A stretch of DNA of 24,570 nucleotides from a virus (IMGVR_UViG_3300025084_000214:1-24570); one strand, 5' to 3'; shown: positions 11,637-13,385, counted from the first letter of the stretch. A program made the numbers and translations. Notes: generated by a model not told the origin, from the sequence alone.

Positions 11637-11795
11637 TTACATAAGCACTTCCTTGCAGATTCTTTTACATGATGCTTGATGCGTATCTGTACATTCAATT
11701 AGGCATTCGTAGTAATCGTTTATTTTTTCTAATTCGGTAGAATCCTCAAAGTGTGACCATTCGTATAACTGATTTCTAGAAGCGAGGTTGTTCAT
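11637..11795 (-). CDS. Small twin CX3C protein (52 aa)
   Basis: Not in track. MNNLASRNQLYEWSHFEDSTELEKINDYYECLIECTDTHQASCKRICKEVLM; bounded by terminators, AGGA upstream. Confidence 0.8.
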   Translation of the reverse strand: MNNLASRNQLYEWSHFEDSTELEKINDYYECLIECTDTHQASCKRICKEVLM

Positions 11796-11847: not shown

Positions 11848-11945
11848 TTGTTCACCTCGTAATTCTATACTATCTATACTAGTTTGTCAGGAAATACTCA
11901 CTTAACGCAAAGAATATTATTGCCTACTAATTTATACCTAGGCAT

Positions 11946-11971
11946 AAAAAAGACCCCCTTGTAGGAGGTCT
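11946..11971 (-). terminator. Rho-independent terminator after g23
   Basis: AGACCTCCT-ACA-AGGGGGTCT followed by TTTTT. Confidence 0.85.
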
Positions 11972-11980
11972 GAAAGGGCA

Positions 11981-12001
11981 TGTGGGACAACCTGCCCCAC
12001 A
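11981..12001 (-). other. Stem-loop 10 nt downstream of the g23 stop
   Basis: TGTGGGGC-AGGTT-GTCCCACA (8 bp, one G-U pair). Confidence 0.6.
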
Positions 12002-12011
12002 ACAACCTGCA

Positions 12012-13385
12012 TCACATAAGGTTCGTGACCTGTACACGACGGTAGTAACGGTTGGCGTTGGCGGTAAGTGCGCCTGAACCTTGAGTAAGACCGTTAGCGA
12101 AGGGGTTCGAGACCATGCCGTAGCGAGTCTTGAAGCCAATCTTGGGCTGGAAGGTGTCAGGGTTGATTGCACGAACCTGCTGAAGAGGAACATATGGGCA
12201 ATAGAACAGACCAGCGTCATAGGCGCTAGTACCCTTATAACCAGCAACATAGAAGTGCTTGTCAGCAAGGTTTGCAGAGTAAGGATCAACGTAGACCTTA
12301 ATCTTGCCGTTGAGTGTACCAACCAGTGTGCTGGAGGTATCGTCAACACCTGCGAGAGCATTGTTACCAGCAAGAGCAGGAGTGTAGTCAAGTACACCAG
12401 CCATACCCAGTGCAGAAGCAACGTCGGCAGAACAAATCAGGATGTTGCCCTTGCCACGACGAGTTTGCTGACCGATGGCGTTAGAATCGCGCTCAATCTG
12501 GAACAGAAGTCCTTTGAACTTCTCAACAGACCAGCGACCGTTGGAGTCAACGTCAAGGTCAAAGATACCAGCGTTAGCGGTATTGTTCTGAGCACCAGGA
12601 ACAGCGTTTGTGTAGATGGTACGAACAACTTCGCGGTTGATTTCAGCAAGGATTTCAGTGCTGAGGATGTTAGCCAGTTCGGTCTCAGCATCCAAGCCAT
12701 GAATCGCCTTAAGGTCTTGAGCCAGTTCGATGCTGTACTCGGCCTTCAGGGCGCGTGCCTTTGCAGTAACGGTGACTTTCTCAATCGAGAAACCCATCTC
12801 ACGGAAAGCAGTGGATGAAGAACCATCGTTAAGTGCTTCAACTGTTGCCGTGCTCATGCCAGTGGCGTCGTCTGCTTGCTCATAGGTTCCAGCAGGGGAA
12901 TCGTTGAGAAGTGCAGGGTTGTTGCCTTGGGCATCGTTGGTTGCGTCAGAAGCACCAGGATCGTATGCACCAGGACCACCAGAGAAACCAGCGTTAGGCT
13001 CGTTGAAGAATGCTTCGTCGTAACCAGAGGCATTAGGATCGCGCTCGCTACCATAGTTGGTACGCATTGCGAAGATAAGTCCAGTAGGACCAGTCATCGG
13101 TTGAACGCCAGCAATATCATAAGCGATAAGCTGAGGCATGGAGCGGCGGATCAGGCTAATCAGAACAGGGTCGAAACCTGCTACAGGACCTGTTGCTGTA
13201 TCGCCACCAGTGTAACCAGTGGTTTGGAGTGTTTCGTTAAGAATGCTTGCCTCTTCGGTCAAAGCTTTCTCTTGGTTTTCTAGGAGTTGTGCAACGACAC
13301 CACGCTTGTGGGAATCGGTGATCTCGGGGAGAGCATCGTGATTCAGAACGGGTGCCCACTTCTCCTGGAGGTTGTGTAAAGACAT
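12012..13385 (-). CDS. g23: Major capsid protein gp23
   Basis: EKWAPVL, LIRRSMPQLIAYDIAGVQPMTGPTGLIFAMR, KARALKAEYS, FQPKIGFKTRYG. Confidence 0.99.
   Translation of the reverse strand: MSLHNLQEKWAPVLNHDALPEITDSHKRGVVAQLLENQEKALTEEASILNETLQTTGYTGGDTATGPVAGFDPVLISLIRRSMPQLIAYDIAGVQPMTGPTGLIFAMRTNYGSERDPNASGYDEAFFNEPNAGFSGGPGAYDPGASDATNDAQGNNPALLNDSPAGTYEQADDATGMSTATVEALNDGSSSTAFREMGFSIEKVTVTAKARALKAEYSIELAQDLKAIHGLDAETELANILSTEILAEINREVVRTIYTNAVPGAQNNTANAGIFDLDVDSNGRWSVEKFKGLLFQIERDSNAIGQQTRRGKGNILICSADVASALGMAGVLDYTPALAGNNALAGVDDTSSTLVGTLNGKIKVYVDPYSANLADKHFYVAGYKGTSAYDAGLFYCPYVPLQQVRAINPDTFQPKIGFKTRYGMVSNPFANGLTQGSGALTANANRYYRRVQVTNLM

What the first reader, a model, noticed from the sequence alone, without database searches (positions are those of the whole stretch)
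11927..12020. Candidate programmed +1 frameshift giving gp23 a Cys-rich C-terminal tail
Seen: g23 ends AAC CTT ATG TGA. The +1 frame reads TTA TGT GAT GCA GGT TGT TGT GGG GCA GGT TGT CCC ACA TGC CCT TTC..., i.e. (L)CDAGCCGAGCPTCPFRPPTRGSFLCLGIN-stop, with 5 Cys in 13 residues and no start codon of its own near the motif. Known: CCGxGCxxCP(F/Y) resembles small metal-binding Cys clusters (DUF5522 / oxidoreductase-like N-terminal motif, from memory). CUU is the P-site codon in the prfB and Ty1 +1 shifts, and phage capsid genes with frameshift-extended C-termini exist (T7 gp10B, Listeria phage PSA). Inference: a minor gp23 form carrying a metal/FeS-binding or cross-linking tail; I know of no description of this in T4-like phages.
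Basis: partly seen in the sequence, partly recalled or inferred. Interest (0 to 1): 0.8.

Follow-up and report, generated by a model that had tools for sequence, protein, structure and literature searches.

The report
Hidden cysteine gene inside capsid gene
A conserved four-cysteine peptide code sits one base out of frame just behind the capsid gene of this marine cyanophage and behind other genes in related phages; it is likely read as the end of a small unannotated gene nested inside the capsid gene rather than as a tail added by a slip at the capsid stop codon, and it is predicted to bind a metal.

Summary
The motif is real (minus strand, 12007-11969) and under protein-level selection. In 88 of 90 distinct g23 junctions that carry it, it lies in +1 (spacers 4/7/10/16 nt), and pN/pS is 0.12-0.18 against 1.3-3.3 in the other frames. 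The proposed CUU-AUG-UGA shift is not supported. CTT occurs in 21 of 90 junctions. Carriers without their own start avoid +1 stops far upstream (3 gains against 81 in non-carriers, p=6e-8; still p=0.0014 at codons 21-35), so ribosomes likely enter the frame well inside g23. The lead entry is ATG 12220, in a predicted hairpin with AAGGG, giving a 97-aa nested ORF; that ATG is not carrier-specific, and an upstream frameshift remains possible. The same module follows psbD and other phage genes, mostly with its own start, and stands alone in a few Synechococcus genomes. It is DUF5522-like but below the Pfam cut-off. No expression data cover the junction. Ten literature searches found no description; this scan noted the element before on other genomes (e1-6475530, e1-5358556).

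The parts
12012..13385 (-). g23, major capsid protein (457 aa), ending AAC CTT ATG TGA
11969..12007 (-). Four-Cys module GCCG(A/S)GCP(T/D)CP(F/Y)R, 13 codons, +1 relative to g23; first Cys codon begins 7 nt after the stop
   Evidence: pN/pS 0.12-0.18 in this frame; spacer changes are multiples of 3 in 88 of 90 junctions
11927..12220 (-). Candidate nested ORF, 97 aa, +1 frame, overlapping g23 by 209 nt and ending in the module (start inferred, not shown)
   Evidence: no PHROG or ESM Atlas hit
12216..12241 (-). Predicted RNA hairpin (-7.0 kcal/mol) holding an AAGGG element (12236-12232) and the ATG 12220-12218; also common in non-carriers
12035..12037 (-). Nearer in-frame GTG (36-aa ORF); polymorphic, absent from isolate ACG-2014g
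11981..12001 (-). 9-bp hairpin inside the module; its 3' arm can alternatively pair with the g23 Leu-Met-stop codons
11945..11971 (-). Intrinsic-terminator-like hairpin and U tract; its 5' arm overlaps the Arg-Pro-Pro codons
   Evidence: terminator-like site within 80 nt in 93 of 93 distinct g23 contexts
11637..11795 (-). Next gene, 52 aa, three Cys (phrog_665, unknown function); also found behind non-carrier g23 ends, so not part of the element

Best explanation
The stretch is a conserved four-cysteine coding module lying in the +1 frame behind the g23 stop, and it is likely translated as the C-terminal end of a separate small protein that ribosomes likely begin inside g23, most probably at the ATG at 12220 (97 aa), rather than as a tail on full-length gp23. 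SHOWN: the module is under protein-level selection in +1. In carriers with no start at or after the g23 Met codon, the +1 frame is kept free of stops over at least the last 21-35 g23 codons, and this constraint relaxes where the module has gained its own start. The same module sits behind psbD and several hypothetical genes, inside the 5' end of a signal-peptide gene, and as a free ATG-started ORF in some Synechococcus genomes. INFERRED: ribosomes translating g23 open the hairpin that holds AAGGG and the ATG, allowing coupled internal initiation as in the MS2 coat/lysis pair; other in-frame starts may contribute. The upstream ~70 residues are likely a passive linker dictated by gp23. The four Cys are predicted to bind a metal ion or Fe-S cluster, from likeness to DUF5522 (itself of unknown function). 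The element is dispensable and moves between gene ends.
For: Coding selection: pN/pS 0.122 over 13 codons and 0.175 over the six codons the search pattern did not fix, against 1.3-3.3 in the two other frames (19 distinct motifs); 88 of 90 junctions in +1 with four spacer lengths. Upstream entry: parsimony gains of +1 stops in the last 80 codons were 3 on carrier branches (length 5.33) against 81 on non-carrier branches (15.38), p=6e-8, and against 21 on 4.51 for close non-carriers, p=3e-5; own-start lineages had 3 on 0.80. By region: codons 1-2, 0 vs 21; 3-11, 0 vs 12; 21-35, 0 vs 22, p=0.0014. Leu/Val/Ile sites where a +1 stop could form held one in 4 of 962 cases (carriers) against 119 of 995 (non-carriers), while the same codon types were used at 125 of 474 and 215 of 528 sites where no stop can form. 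Further upstream, carriers have about one +1 stop per 34 codons in most bins beyond codon 103 (17 long loci). No fixed shift-prone codon in 38 carrier representatives. A start codon is present at the 12220 column in 95 of 96 carriers. Own starts elsewhere: in one hypothetical-gene family sampled without regard to the motif, 30 of 32 carriers against 5 of 15 non-carriers have the Tyr codon that makes the ATG, and the other two carriers have an ATG one codon on (Fisher p=3e-5 on related sequences). Free ORFs in hosts.
Against: The ATG is not carrier-specific: 36 of 37 carrier representatives but also 62 of 65 close non-carriers have it, and the hairpin alone can explain it. Stop depletion is not significant between codons 36 and 69 (1 vs 7, little power) or 70-80 (1 vs 10), so the entry point is not fixed. 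Intact modules occur where the frame is closed with no ATG/GTG/TTG start left: L196 (second copy downstream), L669 (CTG only), and an S-RIM12 allele in 3 of 6 carrier isolates fetched; under this model these are null alleles, and L196 and L923 are not among the 3 gains counted. A 209-nt overlap is far longer than MS2's 50 nt (PMC12548453 passages), and termination-reinitiation needs short distances (PMC10666635 abstract), so coupling would have to be by unfolding. The tree rests on 243 nt of recombining phage DNA. There is no RNA or protein evidence: the RNA contigs laid do not cover the junction.
Confidence: 0.55

Rival explanations
1. Ribosomes translating g23 shift +1 at least 21-35 codons before the stop, at an unrecognised site or diffusely along the long open frame, giving a minor gp23 form whose last residues are replaced by the +1 sequence and the Cys module.
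For: Predicts the same upstream stop depletion and needs no carrier-specific start. Starts within 10 codons are not significantly enriched (53 of 77 vs 39 of 71, p=0.09). g23 is likely so heavily translated that a small leak would suffice (inference).
Against: No conserved shift-prone codon. The product would lose the conserved gp23 C-terminus. Other loci select for an ATG. No gp23-length in-frame fusion was found (weak evidence, as both searches are insensitive).
Confidence: 0.17
2. One reading: a programmed +1 shift at CUU AUG UGA (or at AUG UGA) appends the Cys-rich tail to full-length gp23.
For: Frame conservation. TGA in 86 of 90 junctions. The S-RIM12 TTG allele and L196 can only be entered after the Leu codon. 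Phage capsid extensions by frameshift exist (T7, T3, PSA; PMC5009743 passages).
Against: Does not predict stop depletion 3-35 codons upstream. CTT in 21 of 90. No re-pairing for CUC or AUG in +1 (inference). The TGA and CTY bias is largely shared by the nearest non-carriers (16 and 17 of 19). No carrier with a purine-ending Leu codon and 7-nt spacer was found in the whole viral contig collection.
Confidence: 0.07
3. A 36-aa mini-protein is made by termination-reinitiation at the nearby GTG (12037) or other starts within about 10 codons of the stop.
For: This is the arrangement at most non-g23 loci (start 4-7 codons before the first Cys); 53 of 77 g23 junctions lacking a downstream start have such a start.
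Against: 24 of 77 lack one, including ACG-2014g and four ACG-2014a isolates, with the same pN/pS (0.135 vs 0.131). It does not explain depletion at codons 21-35. At AUGUGA, reinitiation goes to the overlapping GUG, which is the -1 frame (PMC9841429 passages).
Confidence: 0.1
4. Function-level rival, compatible with any entry route: translation of the module acts in cis. A ribosome pausing at Arg-Pro-Pro over the terminator's 5' arm would tune readthrough according to metal or Cys status, as CruR does.
For: N- and C-terminal flanks are free to vary. Terminator-like site in 93 of 93 g23 contexts and 68 of 105 others. CxxC-plus-stall precedent (PMC9426467 passages).
Against: No RAPP motif; the second Pro varies; full DUF5522 proteins also have xP after CP(F/Y); CxxC-to-Arg spacing is 3 residues against 45 in CruR; downstream genes vary; non-carriers have the same terminator.
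Confidence: 0.12
5. The conservation reflects RNA structure or hitch-hiking of a cassette that is not translated at g23.
For: Hairpins exist. L196 shows a compensatory change that trades Pro for Ile to keep pairing with a TAA stop. Most g23 ends lack the module (118 of 120).
Against: The consensus fold has a covariation term of about 0 and 1 of 17 pairs with a two-sided change (11 sequences). Structure does not explain frame-keeping indels, Ser TCN/AGY exchange or upstream stop avoidance.
Confidence: 0.05

Closest known systems
DUF5522 (Pfam PF17653), function unknown
   Same: CCGxGCxxCP(F/Y)xP core; top Pfam hit for the window peptide and for three of four free mini-ORFs tested, second hit for the fourth; best ESM Atlas leads at 0.83
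   Different: Only model positions about 30-45 of 48 are matched; 12.5-15.7 bits against a cut-off of 25, while fuller phage members score 34-66; occurs as an out-of-frame cassette at gene ends
MS2/fr coat-lysis overlapping gene pair
   Same: A small gene starting inside the 3' part of the major coat gene, its start held in RNA structure and opened by coat-gene ribosomes (PMC12548453 passages); here the start and hairpin are predicted
   Different: Overlap 209 nt against 38-50 nt; dsDNA T4-like phage; the conserved part lies after the capsid stop; no lysis-protein likeness found; coupling untested
Frameshift-extended phage capsid proteins (T7 gp10B, T3, Listeria PSA)
   Same: Out-of-frame coding sequence behind a major capsid gene (PMC5009743 passages)
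   Different: No conserved slippery site; +1 frame protected far upstream; the same module is also made from its own start at other loci
CruR (DUF2946) copper-sensing uORF
   Same: CxxC followed by an Arg/Pro motif near a termination signal (PMC9426467 passages)
   Different: No RAPP; 3-residue rather than 45-residue spacing; sits at gene ends, not at the head of operons

Membership tests
DUF5522 (PF17653) | Score at or above the Pfam gathering cut-off (25 bits) | tested here: not met
   12.5 bits for the window peptide, 14.8-15.7 for four free mini-ORFs; four fuller controls 34.2-65.5
DUF5522 (PF17653) | CCGxGCxxCP(F/Y) core | tested here: met
DUF5522 (PF17653) | N-terminal part of the model (positions about 11-29) | tested here: not met
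   matches begin at model positions 30-34
DUF5522 (PF17653) | Metal or Fe-S binding (assumed for the family, not established) | not testable with these tools
   inference from Cys spacing only
prfB-type +1 frameshift | Conserved CUU_U with the stop codon directly in the A site | tested here: not met
   CUU is followed by AUG; CTT in 21 of 90 junctions; definition
Ty1-type +1 frameshift | CUU_AGG_C or a similar slow A-site codon, with re-pairing to UUA | tested here: not met
   A-site codon is AUG; 65 of 90 have CUC; definition
Frameshift-extended capsid (T7/PSA) | Shift at a defined site near the 3' end, leaving the upstream alternative frame unconstrained | tested here: not met
   +1 stops depleted 3-35 codons upstream; no fixed shift codon
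Frameshift-extended capsid (T7/PSA) | Extended protein present in virions | not testable with these tools
   no proteomic data available
MS2-type nested coupled gene | Alternative frame open from inside the coat gene and kept open by selection | tested here: met
MS2-type nested coupled gene | A defined, selected start held in RNA structure | tested here: inconclusive
   start in 95 of 96 carriers with a predicted hairpin, but ATG also in 62 of 65 close non-carriers
MS2-type nested coupled gene | Expression depends on coat-gene translation | not testable with these tools
   needs reporters or ribosome profiling
CruR/RAPP arrest peptides | RAPP-like motif about 45 residues after CxxC, in a uORF heading an operon | tested here: not met
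   (F/Y)RP with a variable next residue, 3 residues after CxxC, at gene ends

The most novel reading that the evidence does not exclude
Cyanophages carry a mobile 13-residue four-cysteine micro-domain that is indifferent to how it is entered (own AUG, GUGA or UUGA overlap, nested AUG, or ribosomal frameshift). It has made the 3' end of the major capsid gene and the signal peptide of another gene dual-coding, and it works as a metal or redox sensor on the ribosome or as a tag on highly expressed phage proteins, including an alternative gp23 form.
Probability: 0.22. Interest if true: 0.85.

Novelty: new variant of a known kind. Interest (0 to 1): 0.62.

Why it matters
g23 is a standard marker gene for T4-like phages (general knowledge), and the isolate records I opened annotate nothing at this position. 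Selection on a second frame in its last 35 or more codons, present in carriers and relaxed in own-start lineages, is a clean natural experiment on how overlapping genes are kept. The module also appears behind psbD and in Synechococcus genomes, so it may be an overlooked host-shared auxiliary gene; as a 13-residue core it would be an easy handle on what DUF5522 does. Cultured phage-host pairs carry it with and without the element (ACG-2014a, ACG-2014g, S-MbCM100, S-RIM12), so the question is directly testable.

Tried and rejected
Rfam: nothing near a gathering score. RNA runs: four contig sets laid (X1, X4, X8 as RNA; X23 of unknown kind), none covers the module or bridges the junction, so neither expression nor RNA-level slippage could be judged. 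Readthrough (frame 0) and the -1 frame (ATG overlapping the stop in this window): not conserved, pN/pS 1.3 and 2.7. CTY and TGA bias as a shift signal: largely shared by nearest non-carriers, and TTG carriers exist. In-frame fusions: two hypothetical-protein fusions (P0003, P0013), each from one contig, among the best 120 listed of 1701 family hits; I read them as errors or rare alleles; cluster membership could not be looked up. No gp23-length fusion in two insensitive searches. phrog_10291: weak hit to one mini-ORF, but it finds none of the module loci and rings in 13 of 14 control genomes. Host scan: 32 of 301 family genomes matched a loose pattern; 27 are one sequence type, many with an in-frame stop, read as an off-frame chance match; 4 are intact mini-ORFs; 1 (L613) was not followed up. 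Three loci ending NLM with a different CCGxGCC mini-ORF (L172, L174, L175) were dropped before the g23 counts. The downstream 52-aa gene is not tied to the module. Mutual exclusion of copies: ACG-2014g has two, the other 104 of 106 records one by that query; not informative. No structure prediction of the nested ORF was obtained, so its fold is open. Literature: ten searches, seen as listings; none showed this element, and DUF5522 gave 0 papers. The library lacks most subscription papers, and no supplements were read, including published cyanophage proteome tables that may bear on expression.

Full report
Observation. The window is a fragment of a T4-like cyanophage 98.7% identical over 301 nt to Synechococcus phage ACG-2014g. 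g23 lies on the minus strand at 13385..12012 and ends AAC CTT ATG TGA. The +1 frame continues LCDAGCCGAGCPTCPFRPP... to a TAA at 11929-11927. A terminator-like hairpin at 11971-11951 overlaps the Arg-Pro-Pro codons. Rfam gives nothing. The frame also holds a GTG at 12037 and an ATG at 12220, so the statement that it has no start is only partly right.

Is it more than chance? Of 120 g23 ends collected by a pattern that ignores the motif, 2 carry it, both in +1 and with many third-position differences from the window. Pattern scans of viral and metagenome contigs and of isolates gave 90 distinct g23 junctions: 88 in +1 with spacers of 4, 7, 10 or 16 nt, and 2 in -1 with 17 nt. The patterns fixed part of the motif, so I tested the unfixed part separately. 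In 19 distinct motifs from scans 8 and 12 plus the window and ACG-2014g, pN/pS is 0.122 over 13 codons and 0.175 over the six unfixed codons, against 1.3-3.3 in the other two frames. Ser is written with both TCN and AGY codons. RNA pairing exists but does not explain this: the consensus fold of 11 carriers has almost no covariation.

The module is not specific to g23. Among 170 distinct contexts it follows the stop of psbD, a psbN-like gene and several hypothetical genes (psbD and psbN recognised by me from their C-termini, not by a call), typically 4 nt after the stop and with ATG, GTG, TTG or CTG 4-7 codons before the first Cys. In one such family, sampled without regard to the motif (47 distinct of 79 loci), 30 of 32 carriers against 5 of 15 non-carriers have the Tyr codon that creates the ATG, and the two other carriers have an ATG one codon on (p=3e-5 on related sequences). 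Three Synechococcus MAGs in the GTDB scan, and two more genomes in a 301-genome family sample, hold a free ATG-started ORF of 27-44 aa with the same core. It is also overprinted on the signal peptide of another phage gene: 36 of 41 distinct sequences keep the full motif in the alternative frame, with third positions nearly frozen. ACG-2014g has a second copy near psbD. At g23 itself, 13 of 90 junctions have gained their own start at or after the Met codon, two of them in the -1 frame through a GTGA overlap. The unit under selection is therefore the four-Cys core, not a gp23 fusion.

How is the +1 frame entered at g23? A nearby start is not required either. Of 77 junctions without a downstream start, 53 have one within 10 codons, against 39 of 71 comparable non-carriers (p=0.09), and start-less carriers show the same pN/pS. 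Reinitiation at AUGUGA goes to the overlapping GUG, the -1 frame, in E. coli tests (PMC9841429, passages).

The decisive computation was on +1 stop codons upstream, using 96 carriers without a downstream start, 25 with one and 106 non-carriers that had 243 nt of upstream sequence. On a tree of these, +1 stops were gained 3 times on carrier-only branches (length 5.33) and 81 times on non-carrier branches (15.38), p=6e-8; against close non-carriers alone, 21 on 4.51, p=3e-5; own-start lineages gained 3 on 0.80, near the non-carrier rate. The depletion holds at codons 1-2, 3-11 and 21-35 (p=0.002, 0.03, 0.0014), but is not significant at 12-20, 36-69 or 70-80. It is not general codon bias: carriers had a stop at 4 of 962 Leu/Val/Ile sites where one could form (non-carriers 119 of 995), yet used the same codon types at 125 of 474 sites where none can form (non-carriers 215 of 528), and they tolerate +1 stops beyond about codon 103. 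A shift at the last codons predicts none of this. Entry is therefore at least 21-35 codons upstream. Two closed alleles (L196, and L923, fetched later) are not among the three gains; adding them gives five.

Where? No codon that could be a fixed shift site stands out in 38 carrier representatives. A start codon is present 68 codons upstream in 95 of 96 carriers, 11 nt behind AAGGG and inside a predicted hairpin (-7.0 kcal/mol in the window), giving a 97-aa ORF whose linker varies freely. This resembles the MS2 coat/lysis pair, where coat-gene ribosomes free a structured start (PMC12548453, passages). The weakness is that close non-carriers have the same ATG (62 of 65) and often the hairpin, so it may be a pre-existing feature the cassette exploits, or irrelevant. 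The overlap (209 nt) is too long for termination-reinitiation (PMC10666635, abstract and outline). An unrecognised or diffuse upstream frameshift remains the main rival.

Results against my reading. Three of six S-RIM12 carrier isolates fetched have TTG before the Met codon, which closes +1 there, with an intact module and no start; a seventh isolate lacks the module altogether. L196 and L669 are also closed without an ATG/GTG/TTG start. These are either null alleles of a dispensable element or show some entry at AUG-UGA. No such allele with the 7-nt spacer was found in the viral contig collection. The tree is short and these phages recombine. No RNA or protein data were obtained.

RNA features. 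The Leu-Met-stop codons can pair with the Pro-Thr-Cys codons; this helix is in the MFE fold of 42 of 96 carriers, 0 of 25 own-start loci, and a comparable stop-covering helix in 67 of 106 non-carriers, and L196 shows a compensatory change. I read it as an older g23 feature that shapes codon choice in the module.

Comparison with what is known. The core matches the C-terminal third of DUF5522 below its cut-off, and ESM Atlas gives DUF5522 clusters as leads at 0.83. It works like a nested coupled gene; it is not a member of the prfB, Ty1, T7/PSA or CruR classes by the features tested (PMC9426467, passages). Metal binding is inferred from Cys spacing only. A profile search of 1.84 billion representatives returned 12 proteins of 33-149 aa, all this module in cyanophage-like or mini-ORF contexts by my reading. 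Ten literature searches, seen as listings, showed no description. Two earlier notes of this scan read the same element on other genomes as a mini-gene. My data agree that it is not a simple capsid tail; the upstream stop depletion and the nested ORF are not mentioned in the lines of those notes shown to me.

Verdict. A real, unannotated, selected coding element. Nested +1 ORF entered inside g23: 0.55. Interest 0.62; new variant of a known kind.

Noticed in passing
window 12216-12241 (minus) and g23 of most relatives: A conserved hairpin inside g23 (over GYKG...YD) fixes a Tyr codon as TAT in 94 of 95 carriers, 25 of 25 own-start loci and 83 of 93 non-carriers, against about 30-60% TAT at the two other Tyr sites seen in all loci.
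   Followed up: partly
L839-L921 (e.g. L839, L850): A secreted-protein gene whose signal peptide is dual-coding with the four-Cys module: 36 of 41 distinct sequences keep the motif in the -1 frame; some upstream genes supply a TTGA overlap start, and two variants begin with an ambiguous ATGTG (L511, L518).
   Followed up: partly
L196 1871 and 2503; L520: Two copies of the module flank a GIY-YIG-like homing endonuclease gene (family recalled, not tested) inserted behind g23; the first copy has a compensatory Pro-to-Ile change.
   Followed up: partly
L300:1465-2484: A short DUF5522-like segment (23.2 bits) fused in frame to a UvdE UV-endonuclease in a viral contig.
   Followed up: no
window 11637-11795 (minus); L603: The 52-aa phrog_665 gene behind g23 has a CxxxC...C pattern, and a similar-looking small gene lies near the host mini-ORF in L603 (by eye; it was not among the tblastn hits).
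   Followed up: partly
L182, L198, L456, L642, L696: A second gene family ending in a Met codon plus TAA carries the module in +1 with a 7-nt spacer and a +1 frame open for 138 codons in L182, the same pattern as g23.
   Followed up: partly
L172, L174, L175: A different Cys mini-ORF (M-x-CCG(Q/N)GCC...) with AGGAG and its own ATG follows genes ending in NLM; unrelated to g23.
   Followed up: no
L774, L778, L817, L819: Decayed or variant cassettes behind the hypothetical-gene family, showing that the element is lost as well as gained.
   Followed up: no
L121 / KJ019071 and ACG-2014a GenBank records: The major capsid gene is annotated as 'head vertex gp24 precursor' in these records, although Pfam and PHROGs call it gp23.
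   Followed up: no
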